Positions 1,999 through 61,577 of a DNA stretch of 64,000 bases are shown here, one piece after another. Source of the stretch: Naegleria gruberi (Eukaryota); NCBI GenBank assembly GCA_000004985.1, contig GG738909.1, one strand, 5' to 3'. How positions within the stretch are numbered: position 1 is the first letter of the stretch; each line of letters begins with the position of its first letter. Below the pieces are notes generated by a model, which was not told the origin of the DNA, searched no databases, and saw nothing but the letters and a program-made list of their open reading frames with translations. Position numbers and translations under genes: made by a program.

Positions 1999-2116
1999 GG
2001 CTACGGCCATATCACGATGAATGCACCTCATCCCGTCCGATTTGAGAAGTTAAGCATCGTCGAGCCACATCAGTACTGAGGTTGGAGACAACTTGGGAAC
2101 CTGTGGTGCTGTAGTC
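1999..2116 (+). rRNA. 5S ribosomal RNA gene, copy 1 (118 nt)
   Basis: GGCTACGGCCATATCAC...GGTGCTGTAGTC. The 5' and 3' ends form helix I, and a TTTTTT RNA polymerase III terminator follows. Identical copies lie at 34416 and 45238. Confidence 0.85.
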
Positions 2117-2377
2117 TTTTTTCTTAAGAACAGAACTAAATGTAAGTTATCATATTCCTTCCGTTAAGTCTTGTCTTTTCACTCCTTAATTGCATATTTA
2201 TTTTGTAATGCGATCACACCGGCCAGAAATTTCATCATGAAAATTTTTTAGCCTTCAGAAAAAATTACTTGTCACCAAAACAAAAGAAAAATCAAGCAAA
2301 CTTGTTCACTCCAAGAAGAAGATCAAAGGTTAGCGATTTTGCAAGTGTAAATAAAGAGAACCAATAATAACAATAAC

Positions 2378-21840: not shown

Positions 21841-22570
21841 ATGGTTAAAGGTTTACTTTTGACTCTTTTAGCAGTCCTTGTTGTCATTGTTGCTGTTGTA
21901 CATGCACAACAATCAACATGTGGTTCCTTGTCAAACAATTCTCGTTACATTAACCTTGTCGGTTCTTGGAGAGAAACTTCGAGTGGTAAGATTTGGACCA
22001 GTGTTCAACAGGGAAATCATTTCACTTGGACACAACAAGGTACCAATAGAAAGGCAACTGGTTTTGTTGGTAAGTAAACTATAGTTTCGAATGAACATGT
22101 CATTTGTGTTTGTGAAAATAGTTGCTCCATGTCAAATTTCTACTGCAGTTGCATATATTACATTTGATGGAAGTACTCATTGGAAAGTTAGTATTTCCTC
22201 CGATGGAGAAATTATTCGTGGACCTTCAGAAACTTTTACTAGAGTGAATGCTACTCAACCAGTTGCTCAACCAAGAGGTCAATATAAGGAAAAGTCAGGA
22301 AAGATTTGGACTGTCACTGGCTCTACTTGTCATGCTTTTACTTTGCGTAATCAAGGTAAGTTTCGAATAGTTTCAGATAATTAAAAATTCTTAATTGAAA
22401 CAGATGGAAGAACTGCTGAAGGTTTCTACTCAAATGATGAATCTACTGGATTGACTACTATCTATATTACATTCCATGATCCTACTGGAGATACTATTTT
22501 GAGATCAACTACTCCTAATATGGATATTTGGCAATTATCGAATGGTGATGTTTTCAGAAGAGTTGTTTAA
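21841..22570 (+). CDS. Small secreted protein with two internal repeats. Model is join(21841..22069,22122..22355,22404..22570).
   Basis: Signal peptide MVKGLLLTLLAVLVVIVAVVHA. Two GTAAGT...AG introns of 52 and 48 nt have consistent phase. The repeat SGKIWT..G occurs twice. Confidence 0.6.
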
Positions 22571-24550: not shown

Positions 24551-26872
24551 TTATTCAATTGTAGTCTTCATGGTGCTTTCCATAAATTTCAAGTAGATTT
24601 GAGTTGTAATCTCAGTCAATTCATCAAATATATCTTCAAAAGTTGGTCTCTCTTTTGGATCAATGTGTGTACATTTCATTCCCAATAAATGAATCTTTTG
24701 AGCTTGTTCTTGAGTGAGGAAATTGAACCTCTCCACCAATTGAACTACTGAAATAAAACTTCCAAAAACATCTGCCATATTGGCAGGTCTATATCCAGAA
24801 ATGAGTGTGTGCATTGTGACTCCAAAACTGAAAATATCCAAAGCTCTAAACACAAACACTGTGTCTTGTTGCTTATTTCTCAATTCTGGTGCCATGTAAT
24901 ATAATGTGCCAGCAGTGGTGCAGGAATAGGTTTCAGGTTTGTCCACTGTGAGAGAAACATCAAAATCTGACAATTTGACATTATCAATAATCTCAACTCC
25001 ATCAATTCTCATCTTTTTCACCAAAATATTATTTGGTTTAATGTCATAATGAATCACATTCTTGGAATGTAAATATTTCATTGTATCTGAAACCTTGACA
25101 AGGGAGAATAATATTTGAACAAGTTCAATAATTGTTGGTTCAGTTATTGAAAATGAAGATAATGAATCATCCATCTTTTCCATGAATAAATGTTCGATTC
25201 CATCTTGATTATAGTGATGTAACAATTTTACAACACCATCATGTTCACAAATTCCATTCATAATTTCAATCTCACTCGTTCCAATATTATTAGAAATTTT
25301 CTCTGCAACAGGAACATTATTCATCAACACTGAATATACAGCTCCATTTGCCCCATTTCCAAGATATGTTCTATTGGCTCTGTTAATGACAGCCCCTTCA
25401 ATGACTGTGGCTCTATTTAAAGTGATAGTTGAAAGAGTTTCTCTTTTCTTCAATCTGCAAGATAAAATATATGACATATTATATGAAAAATATTCTCCAA
25501 GAGACTTGAACTCATCCAATTTCCTATTCAGCATTAAATCAGCTTGTGGAGCCAACATATATTTGAGAATGCTATTATTTGTGATGATTTCTGATTGATT
25601 GTCCACAAGTTTTGGCAAAGTGTAAATGTTAATGAAATATCTGAATGGCTCAATCTCCCCTTCTGACAATAATTCAACCAATGATTCTGCTTCAACACCT
25701 GAACTGAGTAATATTCTGACATCATGGTGATTTCTCTAATTGTAGATGCGAGTTTTTATAAGTATTGGAAATTTTTACAAATAACAAACCTTAATTAGGT
25801 GATGAGCAATTAATAATCTCATAATTTTTGTAAAATTATTAGTTTTGGCAATTTCAAATGGTGTTTCTCCCTTTCTTGGTGTGAATATTGATTTTTTAGC
25901 AAACAAACTTACACACTAATAACCATAAATGGTATTCCAAATAATTTACACTCAAAAACTTACTGACTATTCAAAAAGTTAGTTGGTTATCTTTAATAAA
26001 TACATACACACTGTGAAATGGTTGAGAAATGATCGATTACGAAATCAACTTACATTCTTTTAATTGTTAATGCTTCATTGTGGAAATGAAATTAAACTTA
26101 CATGCTTTAAAATAATTAATTTGAAAAGTAATTGAAATACTTACACACTATAAAAACGTCAGTAAACTCCAATAGATCACTATCAACTTACACACTAATC
26201 AAATTATTCCTCTGCAAAACAACTAATAAGCATACTTACTCCCTAAAATCTCTTATTCGAAACTGTATATGCTAAACTTTACTTACTCCCTAAAACCATT
26301 CAAAATCTCAAATCTACAAATCTACTTACTCCATTCTTATAATCAACCAATGGCATACTCTTCAGTAAATATTTCACAACTTTAACTTGTCCATATTTGC
26401 AAGCAATGTACAACAAAGTTCTCGCTGGAGGATAGTTCTTATTCTTCTCTGGAATTAAAACATCAAGAAGTGATGGTAAATCTTTCATTCGACTCAATTC
26501 TTTCACATTTCCTTGTTTCACCCAATAGGCAGCCAATAATGCATTGTACATTTGTGGAAACAATCGAATAGTTGTTAGTGCTGGACTCCATTGGGATGGC
26601 TGCACCAATAGTTGGAAAATAGGATGAGATGGTTGTCGGAAAGGATAATTGGAAGGAAAAGAAAAAGTGAAAACAAATGGCTCCTCCTTTCAAATTCCAA
26701 TAATTCATTCATCATTGATCAATAAATTGATAAATCTATTCGAAATAAACTCACATCAACAATTTTAAAAGTTACTGTCCATTCCGAAAGTTCATTGTCA
26801 TTCTTAGGTTCGACAGTAAAGCCAGGATGTGTCAGTTGTTTAATATCTCGCAATTCTCTCTGTACTCTCTTC
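24551..26872 (-). CDS. UBC-like (non-catalytic) N-terminal domain, ankyrin repeats and a Ser/Thr protein kinase, about 582 aa. Model is complement(join(24551..25735,25790..25870,26330..26686,26750..26872)).
   Basis: Kinase motifs: LGNGANGAVY, VAEK, HYDIKPNNILV, DFD and YMAPE. Upstream exons encode MLKRVQRELRDI...SEWTVTFKIVD and ...QWSPALTT (an E2-like fold lacking the catalytic Cys) plus ankyrin-like repeats. Introns of 54, 459 and 63 nt have consistent phase. Single-gene linkage is inferred. Confidence 0.5.
25871..26329 (-). repeat. Intronic array of about 9-10 tandem units of roughly 45-50 bp. Each unit begins with a consensus 5' splice site (GTAAGT, read on the minus strand) and ends in AG.
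   Basis: On the plus strand, ACTTAC recurs every 45-50 nt (25908, 25958, 26049, 26098, 26140, 26187, 26234, 26282, 26324). The units are separated by 3-4 nt spacers (GGAG, TGT, TCA, CAT, AAT). Confidence 0.5.
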
Positions 26873-31786: not shown

Positions 31787-33321
31787 TTACAATGAATATT
31801 TACAAGGAACAGATTTGCAAATTTGTGCTAATTTAGAAAGTATGGTTGAGCAAAAAATTGGCTCTTCATAATAATCTTCCAATTGTTCTGCCCATTTACT
31901 TGCTTCCTCCTCATTTGTAAATTCAACTTTTTCAGTGCAATATTCAATCAAATCATTTAGTCCATGTTCGTGAGCTTTCTTCATGACGTTTAAGAGATTT
32001 CGATTGGGAATTTCCAAATGTTCCTTTCCGTAAATGTATTCAATAATGAAAAGAGTTTCGTATGGAAAGATTTCACTAGAATTCCAAGTACCATTCTCAC
32101 TTGAGAGAAATGCTTCAAAAAATAAGCTTTTTGACATGAGAATTGTTTTGTGACATTTCACGGTGAATGAAGTGAGGCCATCTTCTGATGTAATTGAAAT
32201 GTCAATGTCAGAATCACATTCTTTGGTGAATAATTCCCATAGTGGATTAGAAATGTCCTCTTTTTCTGTAATATCCAATTCAGTTATTGAGTTATTGGAA
32301 ACTAGAAGATTGTGTAAATTATTCAAATAAATTCCACATTCGAAATTTTCAATATAATACGCAACTTTTTGTTTTGCCTTTTCAGTAAAACCAAAACTTT
32401 CCAAATATCCCAAATTAACACCTTCGAATAAAATTTTCTTCCAATAAGTCAACTCATTCTCATCAGCTTTATCCAATAGAAAGAGTAATGCAAGTTTCCT
32501 CTCCAAAATAATCGACTCCTCCTCATCCAAATCATCAGGCAACACTTCAATACTATCATACATTAGCACATCCACAATAACTTGCAATTCTTCTCTTTCC
32601 AATTTTGACAATTGACTCAACAATTTCTCATTCAGAAAGACATTTTCAAAAAATGTTGGAAACATTACTTTCAATAAGGGAATAAAGGCAGTAATTTGAT
32701 TATTCGAATCATGATTGAACTTTTTCAATGAAATTCCAGATGTATAGTTTAGTATTTCGTAATGTTTTCTTTCGGATAGTTCATCATCATGAGGATCGAA
32801 ACTAGGATGCAGAGAAATGAGTTTGATGATCAATGGATTGTCGGCTATTCCAATTGGATACAAATAATCCCACTATTGATTATTGAGCTTCTTTGAAAGA
32901 ATCGAATACTTACTGTGTACTATTAATTGATGATAAATATTATTCGAAACAAAAACTTACTGGCTAATATCATGTTTTCCAATTTCCGATTTTTTAAAAT
33001 TTACTTACAACTACAACCTAGATTACAATTTACCAATTAATTAAATTTTCACAATTAAAATTATTCGAAACTTACACCAACATTAACATTCACATTCGGA
33101 ACACTTGCCAAAACTTTTGCCATTTCAAAATCATCCGAAACACAAGCATGCATAAATAATGGACAATAGGAAAAGTATGAATTTTCACAGGTGAAGGAAC
33201 GAATTTCTTTGTTAATTATTTCTTTGGAAAGTTTAGTTTTGAGCCATCTGAGTCCTTCTACATTCTTCTCACTAATAAAATTGACGCCTTTTAGTAAAAT
33301 CTCATCAAAGTTTGTTGACAT
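31787..33321 (-). CDS. Ankyrin-repeat / BTB(POZ)-domain protein. Model is complement(join(31787..32872,33076..33321)).
   Basis: Ankyrin-like first exon (MSTNFDEILLKGVNF...LFMHACVSDDFEMAKVL). The BTB-like region is FTVKCHKTILMSKSLFFEAFLSS. The intervening 203 nt carries a GTAAGT-repeat array, which is assumed to be one intron. Phase 0 at both junctions. Confidence 0.5.
32873..33075 (-). repeat. Second intronic array of tandem splice-donor-like units (4 x GTAAGT...AG of about 40-50 nt)
   Basis: On the plus strand, ACTTAC occurs at ~32910, 32958, 33010 and 33070. The units share the TTCGAATAA motif with the 25871-26329 array. Confidence 0.4.
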
Positions 33322-34415: not shown

Positions 34416-34533
34416 GGCTACGGCCATATCACGATGAATGCACCTCATCCCGTCCGATTTGAGAAGTTAAGCATCGTCGAGCCACATCAGTACTGAGGTT
34501 GGAGACAACTTGGGAACCTGTGGTGCTGTAGTC
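34416..34533 (+). rRNA. 5S ribosomal RNA gene, copy 2
   Basis: 118/118 identical to copy 1, followed by a TTTTTT terminator. Confidence 0.85.
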
Positions 34534-35128
34534 TTTTTTACTTTAACAGGTTTTTCAACATTAGCTGATTTTATGTTACGGTAGTCTTTTTGTCAACAAT
34601 GAAGTATTTGGTTATACCTAATTAGATGTTTTTGATGGTGATGATGCTGAAAGTCGCTTTTGAGTTTGAACTTTGTTAAACTCTTGAATGGAACCAGGCT
34701 TGAAATTTATTGAAATTAATCATTTCAACAGTTTGCATTTGAAATTTGCTTTGAATTATAATCAAGATTCTTTAATTTGTTGCTCCACAACTTGTCCATA
34801 TAATGAAATATCATGATTTGGTTGATATCAATATTTCAAGGAGATTGAGTGGCTCTTTTATAACATTCAATGATTTAAGGTTGGGAAATTTAAAACTGAA
34901 TTAATTCAGTGAACAAAGATAACGTTTGATGTCATCCTCGTTAACAAAACAAATTACAATAATAAATAATAATTGCACCACGTTACCCTTATTACTCTTC
35001 TTCCTCAAGGAGTTTTTCTATCCAATCGCGTAGAATATAGTCGGCATTCGGATACGATCGGTTTTAAGTCCCGCTCTAAGCAAGAACGTTCTATCATCAA
35101 AAAACTTCAATTTTTAAATTTAAAAAAA

Positions 35129-43219: not shown

Positions 43220-44704
43220 TCACTCAATAAAACCATAATTTTTCTTTTTCAGTTGCTTTTTCATACGTTTCAGATACTTGTTTCCATTGTCTATTCCATT
43301 ATCATATACATTTAAATGTTTTAATTTCTTCATTTTGGATAGGTATTTCACTCCTGAATCTTCAATAAAATTCTCAGAAATATCCAGACGTGTTAAGTGT
43401 TTCAATTTAGATAAGGATTTAGCACCTTCAGTTTCAATACTATTTCTATGAACATCAAGTTCAGTCAATTTTTCCAGCTTGCTTATAGATTCAGCTCCTT
43501 CATTTCCAATTGAAATTTCAGAAATCCAAAGTTTAATCAATTGATTCAATCCACTTATTAGTTTTGCCCCCTCATCTCCTAAATTATTAGCTGATATATC
43601 TAAAAAAGTTAAATTTGTCATTTCACTAATTGATTTGGTGCCATCTATTCCTATTAAAGTTGAGTGCATATAAAGTGTTTTCAATTGTTTCATTTCACTT
43701 ATTACCTTTGCACCAGCGTCACCAATCCAGTTGTCACCAATATTCAGACTGATCAGTTGTTTCAAAGAGGTTATTGATTGGACTCCATCAACTGAAACAA
43801 TTTGTATTGCATGAGCTGACAAATTAGTTAATTGTTTCAATTCACATATAAACTTAATTCCTTCCTCATCAATTCCATTTAATCCAACACTCAGATCAGT
43901 CAAATTTTTCATTTGACTAATACATTTGCATCCTTCTGTCCTTATTTCGTTATGATCTATGTCAAGTTTTGTTAGTTGACTTAGTTCTATCAAAGATTTT
44001 ACACCACTATCATCAATACCATTTTCACTTATTTCAAGGCTTGTCAATTGTTTCATTCCAATCATTGATTCAATACCCAAGTTTGTGATCTTACACTTAC
44101 TAATATTTAGAATAGTCAGTTTTTCAAGTTTTGATAAATATTCAACAGCCTTATAACCAATATCATTATAGCCAATACTCAATTCCGTAAGATTAATCAA
44201 ATTACCAATTGATTGAGTTGCTTCCGAACTAATCACATTACTTATCAGATCAAGTTTCTTCAATTGGTCCATCTTACTAATAATTTTAGCACCATCATCA
44301 TCAATTAAATAGGAATCAAATACCAGAGTTTGCAAATTCTTAAACTTCCCAAATACCTTTAAACTTTCATTACATATTTTCGATTCCTCCGTAAAGTGCA
44401 CTCCACAAATACATTCCAAAAATTGGCTCCTTTCCATTAATTTAATTCTTTCCTCATCAATGGGCTGTTTAAATTTCAAATAAATTTCCGAACGTTCCTT
44501 GATTACTCTCATCCATTGTCTTGATATACGAGTGTAATTTTTCAAAACAAACCAATTTGAATATTTACCTCCTATAAGAAAGGAAATAATTTCAAAACAA
44601 ATGTCATCGGGAAATTCTTTAATTTCATGCTGATGACTGATTATTACTTGGTTATTCTCTTCTGTGAAGTTGGGATCAATTCCTGTTTCTCGTAATCGTT
44701 TCAT
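43220..44704 (-). CDS. Leucine-rich-repeat protein (RNI/RanGAP-like LRRs), about 495 aa
   Basis: Many 28-aa LRRs (LxxLxxLxLxxNxIgdeGak). The start is inferred at the internal Met (MKRLRETG). The longer track ORF to 44911 runs antisense through tRNA-Gln and is not credible as coding. Confidence 0.55.
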   Translation of the reverse strand: MKRLRETGIDPNFTEENNQVIISHQHEIKEFPDDICFEIISFLIGGKYSNWFVLKNYTRISRQWMRVIKERSEIYLKFKQPIDEERIKLMERSQFLECICGVHFTEESKICNESLKVFGKFKNLQTLVFDSYLIDDDGAKIISKMDQLKKLDLISNVISSEATQSIGNLINLTELSIGYNDIGYKAVEYLSKLEKLTILNISKCKITNLGIESMIGMKQLTSLEISENGIDDSGVKSLIELSQLTKLDIDHNEIRTEGCKCISQMKNLTDLSVGLNGIDEEGIKFICELKQLTNLSAHAIQIVSVDGVQSITSLKQLISLNIGDNWIGDAGAKVISEMKQLKTLYMHSTLIGIDGTKSISEMTNLTFLDISANNLGDEGAKLISGLNQLIKLWISEISIGNEGAESISKLEKLTELDVHRNSIETEGAKSLSKLKHLTRLDISENFIEDSGVKYLSKMKKLKHLNVYDNGIDNGNKYLKRMKKQLKKKNYGFIE

Positions 44705-44810
44705 TTTTTTTATTGTAAAAACAAATCGACTCTTTCGCAATAGCAGCGAGCCAAAACCAAGCCTAACCTTAATTGATGTAAGATTTACTGCCTTTTTACA
44801 ATAATGTGCT

Positions 44811-44881
44811 CGTCTCGTGGTGTAATGGTAGCATAGTGGACTTTGAATCCATTGACGGAGGTTCGATTCCTCCCGAGACGG
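44811..44881 (+). tRNA. tRNA-Gln (anticodon TTG)
   Basis: Acceptor CGTCTCG/CGAGACG, anticodon loop CTTTGAA, T-arm GGAGGTTCGATTCCTCC. Confidence 0.8.
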
Positions 44882-45237
44882 TAAACGTGGCGAGCCATAC
44901 GAATTTTGCATGTGGACGATAACTATTTTTTTACTTTCCTGGTATAGCCATTTCTTGAAATACCATTAGAATCGAAAATATTAATTGGGTTTTTTGAAAT
45001 TGTTCAGATATTTATGTAATGTACAAAAGGAATTCAAAGAAGAGGAATATTAACTTTCTATTGGAATTCTAGTGATATTTTTGAGACTTTGCATATTTCT
45101 ATTGGGAATACTATTTTGGACGCTTTTCAGTTTAACAATATCTTTAGAAATTCGTTCCTATTGCGATAAAGGAATATTCTTTATATTCATTGTATTAAGG
45201 GAAAATTGTTCATATTTCACATTGTAAGTAACTGAAT

Positions 45238-45355
45238 GGCTACGGCCATATCACGATGAATGCACCTCATCCCGTCCGATTTGAGAAGTTAAGCATCGTC
45301 GAGCCACATCAGTACTGAGGTTGGAGACAACTTGGGAACCTGTGGTGCTCTAGTC
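45238..45355 (+). rRNA. 5S ribosomal RNA gene, copy 3
   Basis: One substitution relative to copies 1 and 2 (GCTCTAGTC vs GCTGTAGTC near the 3' end), followed by a T-run. Confidence 0.85.
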
Positions 45356-45505
45356 TTTTTATATTCATTTTGACTTTTGTGAAATTAGTCTTGGTTTTTA
45401 TTCATTTAATACTTGAATTAATACTATTGATAGCTATGTAAAAAATATTTTAAAATAATTTCCTGAAACATTCATGAATAGTGTATATTTACTTTGAATA
45501 TAATG

Positions 45506-49552: not shown

Positions 49553-49768
49553 TGTTGTGTGAAATATATTATTGTTTGGTTGTTTTTTTTTGTTGTGAAA
49601 TACAGCTATCTGATCGTGTGTTAATAATAGCTTAATGCAAAATATTTTCACCCACTTTTGCTTGAAGCAAGTTTTTTTGCGACGGATGGTATCTTGCTAC
49701 AAATATCTTTGCTTCAAAACCACCCGAAAATATTCAATCATATGTTGTTTAAATTTTATTAACCAGAT

Positions 49769-49859
49769 GGTGAGTTGGTCGAGTGGTCTAAGACGACACG
49801 TTAAGGTATGCCTAATACCGTGTTCCGCAAGGGCGTGGGTTCAAATCCCACACTCATCA
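49769..49859 (+). tRNA. tRNA-Leu (class II, anticodon AAG) with a probable 11-nt intron at 49807-49817
   Basis: Acceptor GGTGAGT/ACTCATC, D-arm GTCGAGTGGTCTAAGAC, anticodon stem ACACG/CGTGT enclosing TTAAGG plus insert, long variable arm, T-arm GTGGGTTCAAATCCCAC. Confidence 0.7.
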
Positions 49860-50035
49860 ATTTTTTATCTCATCTCAAGCTGATCAATTTGAAAAGTGAA
49901 GTATTCAGAATATTGTATTTTATAGAGCAACTGAACTGAATGAAGAATAATGATATTAGTGTTCGTAGGTGATTGGTTTCAAAGATTAAGAAAGGTGAAA
50001 TATTCCAAAATGAAAAAACTTAAATACTTTTTACT

Positions 50036-57800: not shown

Positions 57801-59598
57801 AAATCTTTGCATTCCTTTTCCAAGGAATGTTGCTTTTCTAATGTCTGCTCGAGTAAGGTTTGTTTTTCAGCCATTATGTTGTTAGTATTTTGTAATTGTG
57901 ATTCGAAAGAGGCCTTTTCATCCTGTAAGTGGTGTACTTCTTTTTGAAGTTTACGCTCCAAATCCGCTCTCTTTTTCTTTTCAACCTCGATACTATCTAA
58001 AAGCTCTTCCATTTGGCTAGCATGTTTAATGGTTAGATCTTCAATGATTTTTTGATATTCCTCTTCTGAAGATTTAAGAACCTCTTCAGATTTAACCATA
58101 TCATTCTTCTCCTTTTCGTGTTGATCACGTAAGTTTTCTAAATCTTGTTTTAATTGTTTCTCTCTTTCTGTTGTTACATTCAAACTGGTTTGAAGGGTTT
58201 CCATTTGATGCATCTTTTCATTTAATTGTGATTTAAACTCAGTAACAATCTTATTTCTTTCCTCAATCAAATGTGATGATATTTTTCCAATTTCTGTGGA
58301 AGTGAACGATCCTAAGGTAGATCCAGTCTTTTGAATTTGTTCCAAATATTCCGTTCTGATGTCTACTTGATTTTTCTTCAAGTCTTTGAATTCCTTGGAT
58401 ACTTTTAACAGCTTTGATTTAACAGATTCATTATTGGATTTAAGCTTGAAAATTATTGTTTCATAGGCTTGTTTCAACTTCTCAATCTCTTGTGTGTCAA
58501 TTTGGGGTTGCTGGACTGGAGGAACCTCTGATGGTTTTGATGGTTGTGGTGTGACAGTTGCTGGTTGTTGTGGTTGTTGAACTAGTTGGGCGGTTGTTTG
58601 TGATTTTGGTTGAGGAATCTTTTTCAAAATACAAGACGAAGTTTGTTCCATTGTTTTCTTGGCTGCTTCTGCTGCCGAAACATGTGGAGAACAGTTGGCA
58701 AGTATGATTGCTCTAAAGTCATCAGTTAATAATTGAGAAAATACTGTCGAGAATAAGGTATTGGCATCATTTCTGATTCCCTTTAAATAATCTGATAATG
58801 GAACCATTTCTTCCAATCCAACATCTACAAAAGACAAGTTTGAAGTGATAACTCCTTCTAATCTGAAAGTATAAATTAGTGTTCCTGGAGAGGCATCTTG
58901 TTGGTCTTCTTTCAAAACAATTTTCATTGCTTCATTCAGGTCCTTCATATTACGAATAACACTATTATCTGATATTGTGTTCATATCCCAAATCCTTATT
59001 AAAACTTACTCTTTGATAATTCCACCAAACCATTTTGTTTTACTTTAATGACTAAAAGTCTCAAAGTTGTTCCTAGCATCACTTGGTCAATAATATGTTT
59101 GAAACACCTGTAGAGGAGAGCATCATTTGGTCCAATTTCTTCCGAATCCCAATTTCTCGTTCCAATAATTGAGAATGATTTTCCACTGTATTTTGCACCA
59201 CAACTCACAACTACATTGCTGCATCCGGATAGAATATCTATATTGTTCGATAACATTAAGTGTTAAGGTAACTTAGTACTTACCTGCAACAATTGAAGAT
59301 CCAATGGCATCAAATATTTGTTCTGGAGTTGTACTCATTGGGAAAACCTTATCAAAATCAAACTTTACAGGTTTATCCACTCCGTACTTTACATTTGATT
59401 AACAATTAGCCTTAATTTCCAACTCACCTTCAAGAGAACATTCTTCAAAGACTTGTGGAAGGCTACACTACATTGGGCCTTTTTATCAGTTTCATCACTC
59501 ATTTCAAACTTAATAAAAGGCCTAAATCTACAATATTTGACCAAGTCAGCCCTTGGTTCGTCGACTGCAGAAGTAACCTCACTTTCAGTAACAGACAT
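54842..59598 (-). CDS. Kinesin-like protein with a divergent motor domain and a roughly 1300-aa coiled-coil tail, about 1542 aa. Model is complement(join(54842..58968,59010..59237,59284..59386,59428..59598)).
   Basis: Motor landmarks: KYCRFRPF, FDFDKVF, and P-loop GAKYSGKS. The switch I-like DASPGTLIYTF and switch II-like SNLSFVDVGLEE are both degenerate. Three short GT-AG introns (41, 46 and 41 nt) have verified phases. The rest is continuous heptad repeats. Confidence 0.7.
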
Positions 59599-59936: not shown

Positions 59937-61577
59937 ATGAAACGAAAACATCAAGCAACTATTGTAACACCAACCCCAGTTGAAGATGATGGTCATCGTG
60001 TTCCTGATCAACATGTAACAAACTATGATATTTTCGAACACTATTCAAAGAAAGCTAAAAATTCAATTTTTCAGAAGGACGACCTGGAGACAGATCGTTT
60101 CCACTGCGATTATTGCAAGAAGGACATTTCATCATCGTTGAGAATACGTTGTGCTGAGTGTGATGAATTTGATTTGTGTGCTGATTGCTTTTTTGTTGGT
60201 GTAGAAACAAAAGAACATAAGAATGATCATGCCTATCGGGTGATGGAATATTTGCAAGCTCCTCTCCTATCTACAACATGGACAGCTGATGAAGAATTAC
60301 AACTCCTTGAAGGAATCTCCCAGAAGGGTCTAGGAAATTGGTTAGATATTGCCGAACACATAGGCAAGCAAAAATCAAAATATGAATGTGAATATCACTA
60401 TTGGACACTCTATGTAGATAGGCCAATTGCAAAGAGAAGAGCCTTATTGGAGAAGATTAAAACTCAGAAAGTTGTTGATGATTCAACGGGTTCATCAAGT
60501 GAAGACACTGAAATTTATGTACCTGTTCCAGATACTAAAGCTCCAATTCAAAATGAAAAGATGAACATTTCCAAGAAGGATCTGAAAAAAGATGATGATG
60601 GTATCATTTGGTCTGTAAGAAAGGAGTTATCCCTTCCACCAGTGAATATGCAAACTATTTTCAATGAGAATGTAAAGGCGCATCCAGAATGTGCCAAGTT
60701 TGTGATGGGAACTCTCCTTTCTAGGGAGCCAATTATTGTTGGTAATAGAAAGAATGTTCAGCAATTGGGTCAAGATATAGGTTATCTGCCTCTGAGAGCA
60801 GATTTTGAGACAGATTTCGATTACTGTGCTGAAGATATCATTGCAGAGTTGGAAATTCTCCCTACTGACACACCTGAAGAAAAGGAAAAGAAACTAGATT
60901 ATTTGAGATTATACGAATTTAGATTAAGTGAAAGAGAACGAAGAAAAAAGTTTGCTGTTGAAAGGGGTTTATTCGATTGGAAGAGAATCAGTGCTGTTGA
61001 AAAGAAGAGAAACAAGATGGAAAAAGAATTGTATCAACGATATAGACCATTTGCCAGATTCCTGGACGATCAAGATGAGTTTGACTCTTTCATGGCTGGG
61101 GTTATTCAAGAGACTAAGATAAGAAATAGAATTCAACAACTTAAAGAATATAGAGCTAATGGTTTAACATCTTTGGAACAATGTGACTTGTTTGAATCTG
61201 AAAACAAAAAGAGAGAAGCAGATTTTGACCTGAAGAAAGCTAGAGAGGGTAATATCAAATCTCCTTCAATTAAGAGAAATGCAGAGGTAATTACTGGTAC
61301 ACCAAAAGATCCAAACATGGTTGGTATTGAAATGTTGTCAAAGAGGGAACGTAGTTTCTGTGTTGGTTTACAACTCTATCCAAAGCATTACATACTTATT
61401 AAGGATGTTTTGATAAGAGAATCGGTGCAATTAGGATTTGTCTCAAAGGCAACAGCTTGTAAATTATTTACTGATTTTGAAAAGGACGTTATTTCAAAAA
61501 TTCACGACTTTTTTGTTTCAAATAATTGGATTCTTGGTGCTCCACAAGCTACACAAGAAGGCAGTTCAGGTAAATAA
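59937..61577 (+). CDS. Transcriptional adaptor ADA2 (ZZ zinc finger + SANT + SWIRM)
   Basis: ZZ finger CDYCKKDISSSLRIRCAECDEFDLCADCF...H, SANT domain WTADEELQLLEGISQKGLGNWLDIAEHIG, and a C-terminal SWIRM-like region. Single exon. Confidence 0.85.
   Translation: MKRKHQATIVTPTPVEDDGHRVPDQHVTNYDIFEHYSKKAKNSIFQKDDLETDRFHCDYCKKDISSSLRIRCAECDEFDLCADCFFVGVETKEHKNDHAYRVMEYLQAPLLSTTWTADEELQLLEGISQKGLGNWLDIAEHIGKQKSKYECEYHYWTLYVDRPIAKRRALLEKIKTQKVVDDSTGSSSEDTEIYVPVPDTKAPIQNEKMNISKKDLKKDDDGIIWSVRKELSLPPVNMQTIFNENVKAHPECAKFVMGTLLSREPIIVGNRKNVQQLGQDIGYLPLRADFETDFDYCAEDIIAELEILPTDTPEEKEKKLDYLRLYEFRLSERERRKKFAVERGLFDWKRISAVEKKRNKMEKELYQRYRPFARFLDDQDEFDSFMAGVIQETKIRNRIQQLKEYRANGLTSLEQCDLFESENKKREADFDLKKAREGNIKSPSIKRNAEVITGTPKDPNMVGIEMLSKRERSFCVGLQLYPKHYILIKDVLIRESVQLGFVSKATACKLFTDFEKDVISKIHDFFVSNNWILGAPQATQEGSSGK

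What the first reader, a model, noticed from the sequence alone, without database searches (positions are those of the whole stretch)
32873..33075. Second GTAAGT-repeat array in the ankyrin/BTB gene intron, sharing a motif with the first
Four GTAAGT...AG units of about 40-50 nt are separated by 9, 4 and 6 nt. They lie between the ankyrin exon (...NVNVG) and the BTB exon (WDYLYPIG...). The units contain TTCGAATAA, which is also seen in the 25.9-26.3 kb array. That suggests a dispersed intron-resident repeat family carrying functional-looking donor sites.
Basis: seen in the sequence. Interest (0 to 1): 0.6.

Follow-up and report, generated by a model that had tools for sequence, protein, structure and literature searches.

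The report
Trains of mini-introns with one-codon exons
In two Naegleria gruberi genes, a stretch first read as a repeat inside an intron looks instead like a row of 4 or 10 normal-sized tiny introns separated by exons only 3 to 9 bases long, an arrangement I could not find described in the literature I searched and one that still needs RNA evidence.

Summary
The window is Naegleria gruberi and the feature lies on the minus strand. At 33075..32873 there are four GTAAGT...AG units of 58, 45, 41 and 41 nt. Their spacers are 9, 3 and 6 nt, not 9, 4 and 6.

The 26.3-25.9 kb array has ten such units of 40-48 nt, separated by nine spacers of exactly 3 nt. All 12 spacers are multiples of three, and both arrays start and end in codon phase 0. 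Any donor-acceptor pairing therefore keeps the reading frame.

Unit interiors are no more alike than shuffled sequence, and Tandem Repeats Finder (TRF) sees no period. This is not a repeat family. The shared TTCGAATAA belongs to a 9-mer that is enriched in ordinary introns of the window as well.

Unit sizes match ordinary introns nearby. A close strain (dS 0.02-0.05) keeps every unit that its contigs cover. A metagenome contig from a different organism (17% GC) carries five mini-introns with four single-codon exons at the same place in an ankyrin repeat. There the one-codon exons are needed for the canonical repeat length.

Best reading: tandem spliceosomal introns with in-frame microexons. 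No RNA data were available, so splicing is inferred, not shown.

The parts
33076..33321 (-). Exon 1 of the unannotated BTB gene (MSTNFDE...NVNVG). It carries a weak ankyrin-like repeat that ends at the array.
   Evidence: ORF and frame. Ank_3 is sub-threshold, E 0.022.
33018..33075 (-). Array 2 unit 1: a 58-nt intron-like unit, GTAAGTTTCGAATAA...CTAG.
   Evidence: The close strain has GTGAGT at this donor.
33009..33017 (-). Spacer / candidate microexon GTTGTAGTT (VVV), 9 nt.
   Evidence: The one substitution in the close strain, GTT to GTC, is synonymous. A closer AG (TGTAG) would give a 2-nt spacer, so this boundary is the least certain.
32964..33008 (-). Array 2 unit 2: 45 nt, GTAAGT...TTAG.
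32961..32963 (-). Spacer / candidate microexon CCA (P), 3 nt.
32920..32960 (-). Array 2 unit 3: 41 nt. It contains GTTTCGAATAA.
32914..32919 (-). Spacer / candidate microexon TACACA (YT), 6 nt.
32873..32913 (-). Array 2 unit 4: 41 nt, GTAAGT...ATAG.
31787..32872 (-). Last exon of the BTB gene (WDYLYPIG... to the stop codon). The BTB domain lies at residues 303-398 of the isoform that skips all microexons.
25871..26329 (-). Array 1: ten intron-like units of 40, 44, 45, 44, 40, 45, 43, 41, 48 and 42 nt (nine start GTAAGT, one GTATGT). They are separated by nine 3-nt spacers, GGA GGA TGT TGT CAT AAT TGT TCA TGT (GGCCHNCSC). The array lies inside an ankyrin repeat of an ankyrin-kinase gene.
   Evidence: Ank_2 spans residues 27-97, E 4.8e-9.
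26330..26551 (-). Upstream ankyrin exon of the array-1 gene (MYNALL...VDYKNG). The start codon is provisional.
24551..25870 (-). Downstream part of the array-1 gene. It comprises exon GETPFEIAK...HHLIK (25870-25790), an ordinary 54-nt GTTTGT...TAG intron (25789-25736), and the kinase exon to the stop codon.
   Evidence: Pkinase E 3e-32.

Best explanation
Each GTAAGT...AG unit is an ordinary short U2-type spliceosomal intron. The arrays are 'intron trains': 4 or 10 introns in a row, separated by in-frame microexons of one to three codons. They sit at the loop between ankyrin(-like) repeats.

Inferred mechanism. Each donor pairs with the nearest branch point and acceptor (intron definition). Two spliceosomes cannot sit 3 nt apart, so the introns must be removed one after another. 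Each removal joins the tiny exon to the growing upstream exon and restores a normal context for the next donor.

All spacers are 3n and both ends are in phase 0. Skipping any subset of microexons, or the loss of an internal site by mutation, still gives an intact protein that differs only by a few loop residues.

Inferred origin. An intron was multiplied locally together with the adjacent codon. The site tolerates this because it is a surface loop.

Shown here: the sequence anatomy, the frame rule, the resemblance to ordinary introns, retention in a close strain, and a second-organism example. Not shown: any RNA-level splicing.
For: 1. Splice signals. 13 of 14 units start GTAAGT and one starts GTATGT. 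All end in AG (10 TAG, 3 AAG, 1 CAG).
2. Size. Units are 40-58 nt (median 43.5). Eleven ordinary predicted introns in the same window are 41-85 nt (median 53) and use the same acceptor types.
3. Composition. Units are 24-27% GC against 32-34% for the exons, and they carry stop codons in all frames.
4. Frame rule.
   - 12 of 12 spacers are multiples of three, (1/3)^12 = 1.9e-6.
   - In array 1 an AG sits exactly 3 nt before each of nine donors.
   - Background donor pairs elsewhere in the window have spacers of 4, 5, 6, 7, 10, 14 and 15 nt.
   - Both the include-all and the skip-all mRNAs give uninterrupted ORFs.
5. Non-random spacer codons. TGT occurs in 4 of 9 spacers (P about 1e-6 from codon usage, 1e-4 from trinucleotide frequency). 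GGA occurs twice and is also the codon on both flanks. Either the spacers are translated, or the codon was copied along with the intron.
6. Conservation. A strain with dS 0.02-0.05 keeps all four units of array 2 and the last four and a half units of array 1. Both donor substitutions keep the GT, and the one spacer change is synonymous. The host ORFs are intact, with dN/dS of 0.24 and 0.51.
7. Independent example. Contig L051 (17% GC) carries GADVNAKN | K | W | N | S | [11 protein letters not shown]..., with five introns of 35-44 nt and four 3-nt exons at the same ankyrin position. The four codons restore the canonical 5-residue hairpin. The units there resemble each other (13.5 against 10.3 +/- 0.6, P<0.001), which fits local duplication.
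8. Alternatives excluded. There is no repeat periodicity, no RNA structure (z 0.2 and 0.5) and no Rfam hit, so a repeat or an ncRNA is unlikely.
Against: - No transcript evidence of any kind was available.
- Nine consecutive 3-nt exons are sterically awkward for known spliceosomes.
- For both Naegleria arrays, my manual alignment shows the skip-all isoform giving the canonical ankyrin spacing (array 2 exactly, array 1 one residue short). The microexon residues would therefore be extra loop residues, which fits the single-composite-intron rival equally well. Pfam scores do not distinguish the isoforms.
- The 9-nt spacer of array 2 has an alternative AG that would leave 2 nt.
- Divergence from the close strain is too low to show constraint on the arrays: 2 changes in 203 nt and 4 in 218 nt, about the synonymous rate.
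- Naegleria unit interiors show no trace of duplication. Junction identity beyond the repeated codons is not significant (P 0.07-0.25).
- Both host genes are fast-evolving, lack detectable orthologues and appear to be unannotated.
- Only three arrays are known so far.
Confidence: 0.5

Rival explanations
1. Each array is one composite intron (203 nt or 459 nt). It is normally removed from the first donor to the last acceptor, or stepwise in a recursive-like way, with the tiny spacers discarded. The internal GTAAGT/AG pairs are redundant or intermediate sites. Their 3n spacing only makes occasional use harmless.
For: - Skip-all isoforms keep the ORF.
- By my manual alignment to the ankyrin consensus, skip-all isoforms give the canonical inter-repeat spacing.
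- In the close strain one internal donor is weakened to GTAGGT.
- The arrangement resembles recursive splice sites.
Against: - Ordinary introns in this window are 41-85 nt. A 459-nt intron would be an outlier.
- In an intron-definition system the nearest acceptor should win.
- Sites that are never used would not be expected to keep nine perfect AG-NNN-GTAAGT junctions, nor the non-random TGT and GGA spacer codons.
- In L051 skipping would leave a hairpin of 1 residue instead of 5.
Confidence: 0.27
2. The arrays are evolutionary debris in decaying or barely expressed genes. They could be the leftover introns of deleted ankyrin-repeat exons ('ghost exons'), or an insertion that is poorly spliced. 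On this view they have no present function and the genes are on the way to becoming pseudogenes.
For: - Neither gene has an exact N. gruberi protein in the protein database, and neither has orthologues beyond a close strain.
- dN/dS is 0.24 and 0.51, against 0.04 for a neighbouring gene.
- The UBC-like exon upstream of array 1 has a frame break.
- The model would explain why unit interiors are unrelated and why the site is an ankyrin repeat boundary.
Against: - ORFs of 443-504 codons stay intact across both arrays in two strains, and dN/dS is below 1.
- Every splice signal and every 3n spacer is retained.
- Repeated deletions that each leave exactly 3 nt have no obvious mechanism.
- In L051 the leftover codons do not match the exon ends, apart from AAT.
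Confidence: 0.13
3. The units are copies of a dispersed, intron-resident repeat or introner-like mobile family marked by GTAAGTTTCGAATAA.
For: - GTAAGTTTCGAATA occurs at the start of u1 and of an unrelated intron at +22356.
- TTTCGAATR is enriched 6-fold in the window and concentrated in introns.
- GGA/GGA and TGT/TGT flank three units like 3-bp target duplications.
Against: - Unit interiors are no more alike than shuffles.
- u1 against the +22356 intron is not significant once the motif is removed.
- No terminal inverted repeats were found.
- 11 of 14 units lack matching flanks.
- The motif's position within introns varies, and it also occurs in exons.
Confidence: 0.07

Closest known systems
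Animal and plant microexons, including single 3-nt exons (Drosophila homothorax PMC7392893; human MAP4K5 PMC8632122; plant microexons PMC8831610)
   Same: They are exons of 3 nt and up, flanked by normal splice sites and kept in frame, and they usually encode surface-loop residues.
   Different: Known cases are isolated, or a few per gene, and lie between long introns. They often need dedicated factors or exon-definition tricks. Here up to nine one-codon exons follow one another, each separated by a minimal intron of about 44 nt, in a genome with fewer than one intron per gene (10.1101/2024.01.08.573270).
Schistosome micro-exon genes (MEGs), PMC10526429
   Same: They have runs of symmetric (3n) micro-exons, so exon skipping keeps the frame and can generate protein variants.
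   Different: MEG exons are 3-81 bp and are interspersed with long introns of up to 5 kb. They make up most of a secreted protein. Here the run is a local insert in one loop of an intracellular-type protein (ankyrin-kinase or BTB), and the introns are minimal.
Recursive splicing at ratchet points (Drosophila Ubx and other long introns; vertebrate RS-exons). From my own knowledge, not checked in a paper here.
   Same: A 3' splice site lies next to a GTAAGT donor. Removal is stepwise, from 5' to 3', and each step regenerates a usable donor context.
   Different: Ratchet points have a zero-length exon (AG|GTAAGT) and subdivide introns of tens of kilobases. Here the spacers are 3-9 nt, each segment is about 45 nt, and the spacers would stay in the mRNA.
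Introners and introner-like elements (PMC3609843, PMC4457414)
   Same: They are a route by which many new introns with strong splice sites appear in genes.
   Different: Introners are recognisable multi-copy families with alignable sequence, and often with target-site duplications. The units here share only splice signals and, in three of them, a 9-mer.
Stwintrons, nested spliceosomal twin introns of fungi (PMC8469720)
   Same: They are complex intervening sequences that need consecutive splicing reactions.
   Different: In a stwintron one intron interrupts a splice signal of another (nested). Here the introns are side by side and each is complete.

Membership tests
U2-type GT-AG spliceosomal intron (each unit) | 5' GTRWGT-type donor and 3' AG acceptor | tested here: met
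   13 units start GTAAGT and 1 starts GTATGT. All 14 end in AG.
U2-type GT-AG spliceosomal intron (each unit) | Length and composition typical of the host genome's introns | tested here: met
   Units are 40-58 nt, against 41-85 nt for 11 predicted ordinary introns of the window. GC is 0.24-0.27, against 0.32-0.34 for the exons. The ordinary introns are themselves predictions.
U2-type GT-AG spliceosomal intron (each unit) | Removal restores a continuous reading frame | tested here: met
   Include-all and skip-all mRNAs both translate without stop codons.
U2-type GT-AG spliceosomal intron (each unit) | Excision observed in RNA | not testable with these tools
   No transcript data are reachable. 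No transcript-derived protein for either gene is in the protein database.
Microexon | Exon of 30 nt or less, bounded by an acceptor and a donor, with a length that preserves the frame | tested here: met
   Spacers are 9, 3 and 6 nt and nine of 3 nt. All are 3n and none is a stop codon.
Microexon | Inclusion in mature mRNA | not testable with these tools
   There is only indirect support. TGT is non-randomly frequent among the spacers, and L051 needs its microexons for the canonical ankyrin length.
Recursive-splicing ratchet point | Zero-length exon, with AG directly abutting GTAAGT, inside a very long intron | tested here: not met
   Spacers are 3-9 nt. The whole arrays are 203 and 459 nt.
   The mean pair score is 7.02, against 7.04 for shuffles. 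TRF finds no period of about 45 nt. The repeat finder returns only 12-28-nt matches centred on junctions, and these are not significant once the repeated codons are allowed for.
   There are only two arrays in the 64 kb window. A 21.7 kb N. fowleri locus has none.
Introner / introner-like element | Multi-copy family with target-site duplications or terminal repeats | tested here: inconclusive
   No alignable copies were found and no terminal inverted repeats. Identical 3-nt flanks occur for only 3 of 14 units. Genome-wide copy number was not tested.
Schistosome-type micro-exon gene | Runs of symmetric micro-exons separated by long introns in a secreted protein | tested here: not met
   Symmetric micro-exons are present. 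However, the introns are 40-58 nt and the host proteins are ankyrin-kinase and BTB. Signal peptides were not tested.
Ankyrin repeat (context of the arrays) | Pfam Ank family hit above the gathering score on the flanking exon | tested here: inconclusive
   Array 1 meets it (Ank_2 37-42 bits against 27.3). Array 2 does not (Ank_3 15.7 bits against 22.3). L051 meets it (Ank 87 bits).
BTB/POZ domain (downstream exon of the finding) | Pfam PF00651 above the gathering score | tested here: met
   30.4 bits against 20.5, E 4.6e-7, residues 303-398.

The most novel reading that the evidence does not exclude
Naegleria gruberi, and at least one unrelated AT-rich protist, constitutively splice 'intron trains': up to ten minimal introns separated by single-codon exons. 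If so, a spliceosome can handle 3-nt exons in series by intron definition alone. Introns would also be able to multiply locally, one codon at a time, in an otherwise intron-poor genome. Because every donor-acceptor combination is in frame, the trains could generate a combinatorial set of loop variants at the binding surface of ankyrin-repeat proteins, up to 2^9 for array 1.
Probability: 0.35. Interest if true: 0.8.

Novelty: new variant of a known kind. Interest (0 to 1): 0.62.

Why it matters
If the internal sites are used, these loci would be the most extreme run of microexons that I found any record of. Nine consecutive one-codon exons would give a natural test of the minimum exon size and of the steric limits on neighbouring spliceosomes.

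They would also document a way of gaining introns that is neither an introner burst nor scattered single gains. Instead, introns would multiply locally at one site, in a genome that averages fewer than one intron per gene.

There is a practical point too. Neither host gene has a matching protein in the public N. gruberi protein set. Gene finders apparently fail on such structures, so similar loci may be hidden in this genome and in others.

All three arrays sit at the hairpin between ankyrin repeats. This suggests either a mechanistic link to repeat-gene recombination or simply that the loop tolerates insertions. A genome-wide census could tell these apart.

Tried and rejected
- **Repeat family.** All-against-all alignment of the unit interiors against shuffles, TRF and the repeat finder found no homology beyond the junctions. 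A column-shuffle test showed that the 15-16-nt junction identities are explained by the repeated spacer codons plus composition (P 0.07-0.25). I therefore dropped the idea of 'junction cassettes'.
- **Introner link.** I tested u1 against the +22356 intron. The match is not significant once the 8-nt motif is removed.
- **RNA gene or structure.** Rfam gave no hit at the arrays. Folding z-scores are 0.2 and 0.5.
- **Constraint from a relative.** The only relatives are contigs of one close strain, and the divergence is too low to be informative. No more distant orthologues exist in 5.8 billion proteins.
- **More Naegleria sequence.** The look-up of encoding contigs has no record of the N. gruberi genome, not even for the exact NCBI protein P0002. 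A 21.7 kb N. fowleri locus has no array, and its one zero-spacer candidate was an exon.
- **Wider pattern scans.** The viral collection returned only true tandem repeats and chance hits. L039 proved to be a continuous phage ORF. Only L051 was a real array.
- **A third array.** A candidate at 59283 is an ordinary kinesin-like exon that contains GTGAGT.
- **Literature.** Searches on tandem introns, intron arrays, 3-nt exons, intron duplication, and Naegleria with introners or microexons found no description of such arrays.
Full report
**Source and orientation.** The window is Naegleria gruberi. The ADA2-like ORF at 59937-61577 is 100% identical to the NCBI 'predicted protein [Naegleria gruberi]', with N. 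fowleri next at 57% and Acrasis kona at 41%. GC is about 33%. The finding lies on the minus strand, where the plus-strand ACTTAC motifs read GTAAGT.

**Checking the observation.**
- On the minus strand the upstream ORF (ATG at 33321) ends ...NVNVG with its last codon at 33078-33076.
- Four units follow, each starting GTAAGT and ending AG: 33075-33018 (58 nt), 33008-32964 (45 nt), 32960-32920 (41 nt) and 32913-32873 (41 nt).
- The downstream ORF resumes at 32872 with WDYLYPIG.
- The spacers are GTTGTAGTT, CCA and TACACA, that is 9, 3 and 6 nt.
- The downstream exon carries a BTB domain (E 4.6e-7).
- The upstream exon gives only a sub-threshold ankyrin hit, and that hit ends exactly at the array (E 0.022).
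- The clustering of GTAAGT is far beyond chance.
- An independent metagenome contig from a close strain, L001, has the same four units with two substitutions. The arrangement is therefore real DNA and not an assembly artefact.

**The first array.**
- The 26.3-25.9 kb array is the same kind of object on a larger scale. It has ten units of 40, 44, 45, 44, 40, 45, 43, 41, 48 and 42 nt, spanning 26329-25871.
- Nine spacers of exactly 3 nt separate them: GGA GGA TGT TGT CAT AAT TGT TCA TGT.
- The last unit has to end at AAAG (25871) for the frame to continue into GETPFEIAK....
- This array lies inside a Pfam-supported ankyrin repeat of an ankyrin-kinase gene.

**The frame rule.**
- All 12 spacers are multiples of three, none is a stop codon, and both arrays begin and end in codon phase 0.
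- The mRNA with all microexons and the mRNA with none are therefore both open. They read ...NVNVG(VVVPYT)WDYLYPIG... and ...DYKNG(GGCCHNCSC)GETPFEIAK....
- By chance 12 of 12 has a probability of 1.9e-6.
- In array 1 an AG sits exactly 3 nt before each of nine donors.
- Other donor pairs in the window have spacers of 4, 5, 6, 7, 10, 14 and 15 nt.
- The weakest point is the 9-nt spacer of array 2. A nearer AG there would leave 2 nt.

**Not a repeat family.**
- With splice signals removed, the 14 interiors are no more alike than shuffled sequence (7.02 against 7.04 +/- 0.19).
- TRF finds no period near 45 nt.
- The repeat finder returns only short matches centred on the junctions. A column-shuffle test shows that these follow from the repeated spacer codons and from composition.
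- The repeated codons themselves are non-random. TGT fills 4 of 9 spacers (P about 1e-6 to 1e-4).

**The TTCGAATAA motif.**
- The shared TTCGAATAA is part of TTTCGAATR, which occurs 12 times in the window against 1.8 expected.
- Six copies lie in introns, always in the sense orientation. Three of those are ordinary single introns of other genes.
- Other copies lie in exons and in a 3' region.
- The best unit-to-intron match rests on this motif alone.

**Resemblance to ordinary introns.**
- Eleven predicted ordinary introns of the window are 41-85 nt. They use GTAAGT, GTATGT, GTTTGT or GTGAGT donors and TAG, CAG or AAG acceptors.
- The units fall in the same size range, use the same signals, are more AT-rich than the exons, and have stop codons in every frame.
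- No RNA family or unusual fold is present.

**The host genes.**
- Neither gene has an exact match among the N. gruberi proteins in the database, although other N. gruberi proteins are present there. Apart from the close strain, the BTB gene has no relative at E <= 0.001 and the kinase gene has only two distant kinase-domain hits at about 30% identity.
- Against that strain the ORFs stay intact. dN/dS is 0.24 (9 synonymous, 9 non-synonymous changes) and 0.51 (6 and 12), compared with 0.04 for a neighbouring gene. dS is 0.02-0.05.
- The arrays differ by 2 in 203 nt and 4 in 218 nt, which is too few to show constraint.
- Two of these changes fall in donors, GTAAGT to GTGAGT and GTAAGT to GTAGGT. 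Both keep the GT.

**A second organism.**
- A pattern scan of viral contigs gave only tandem repeats and chance matches.
- The L051 coding sequence reads [29 protein letters not shown] | K | W | N | S | [18 protein letters not shown]..., with five introns of 40, 35, 38, 44 and 36 nt and four 3-nt exons.
- The four codons bring the inter-repeat hairpin to the canonical five residues. Without them only one residue would remain.
- The L051 units resemble one another significantly, as expected after local duplication.
- All three known arrays thus sit at the hairpin between ankyrin(-like) repeats. A motif scan finds only one canonical ankyrin helix start in the whole window, and it directly follows array 1.

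**Interpretation.**
- The best-supported reading is a train of independent short spliceosomal introns separated by in-frame microexons. The introns would be removed one after another, and the arrangement is tolerated because the extra residues fall in a surface loop.
- The main rival is a single composite intron whose internal sites are intermediates or spares. That rival is favoured by my manual alignment, in which the skip-all isoforms of both Naegleria genes give canonical ankyrin spacing.
- The rival is disfavoured by the short-intron habit of this genome, by the perfect internal junctions, by the non-random spacer codons, and by L051.
- The origin, whether local intron-plus-codon duplication, repeated insertion at one site, or leftover introns of deleted repeat exons, is not resolved for Naegleria.

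**Comparison with known systems.**
- Single 3-nt exons, schistosome micro-exon genes, recursive splice sites, stwintrons and introners each share one aspect.
- None of them combines minimal introns with serial one-codon exons (PMC7392893, PMC8632122, PMC10526429, PMC8469720, PMC3609843).
- Full-text searches found no description of such arrays.
- The N. gruberi genome is reported to average fewer than one intron per gene (10.1101/2024.01.08.573270). Ten introns within 459 nt is therefore very unusual for it.

**Verdict.** The 'repeat family' interpretation is replaced by 'intron train with microexons'. That reading rests on sequence alone and can be tested with existing RNA-seq.

Noticed in passing
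window 22085, 22361 (+); 26254, 26737, 32941, 33062 (-); also 5826, 11198, 11576, 28727, 32337, 62854: The 9-mer TTTCGAATR occurs 12 times against 1.8 expected. Half of the copies lie inside short introns, always in the sense orientation and at variable distance from the splice sites. Twice it directly follows the donor, as GTAAGTTTCGAATA. It could be an intronic RNA or DNA element of N. gruberi. Its function is unknown.
   Followed up: partly
window 26876-26560 (-): Upstream of the array-1 ankyrin exon lies a UBC (E2)-like exon (MLKRVQRELRDIKQL...), followed by a 68-nt intron. After that the UBC-like sequence changes frame by +1 between ...YFPTI and QWSPALTTI, and the active-site segment is missing. 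This could be a degenerate domain, a pseudo-exon or a 1-nt assembly error, so the true start of the ankyrin-kinase gene is uncertain.
   Followed up: partly
window 24551-26551 and 31787-33321 (-): Neither array-bearing gene has an identical protein among the N. gruberi entries of the protein database, although a neighbouring gene (ADA2) does. They appear to be unannotated in the reference proteome, possibly because gene finders cannot model 3-nt exons.
   Followed up: partly
L051 1-1425 (JGI metagenome contig Ga0207864_1037532): The contig is 17% GC and carries near-identical tandem ankyrin-repeat exons. The coding frame upstream of the first intron runs through an in-frame TAA with no ATG after it. 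This hints at an upstream exon or a ciliate-type genetic code. The contig ends just after another GTAAGT that follows ...DINAKT, so a second intron train may follow. The organism is not identified.
   Followed up: partly
L001, L002, L003 (ENA ERZ929261 / run ERR1078381, project PRJEB11402): A public metagenome contains a Naegleria strain 97-98% identical in DNA to the reference at both loci. It could be mined for more of its genome.
   Followed up: no
window 1999-2117, 34416-34534, 45238-45356 (+): Three dispersed 5S rRNA genes lie within 64 kb, all on the plus strand (105, 105 and 98 bits). One is about 1.1 kb upstream of the BTB gene's start codon.
   Followed up: no
window 44810-44882 (+) and 49768-49860 (+): The tRNA-Gln gene overlaps the first 100 nt of the mechanical ORF 43220-44911 (-), an LRR protein. 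That ORF's real start must therefore lie further in. The 93-nt tRNA at 49768 has an unresolved anticodon in ARAGORN and probably contains an intron.
   Followed up: no
window 21843-22570 (+): A small secreted-looking protein gene has two short introns (52 and 48 nt), and both carry the TTTCGAAT motif near their 5' ends.
   Followed up: partly
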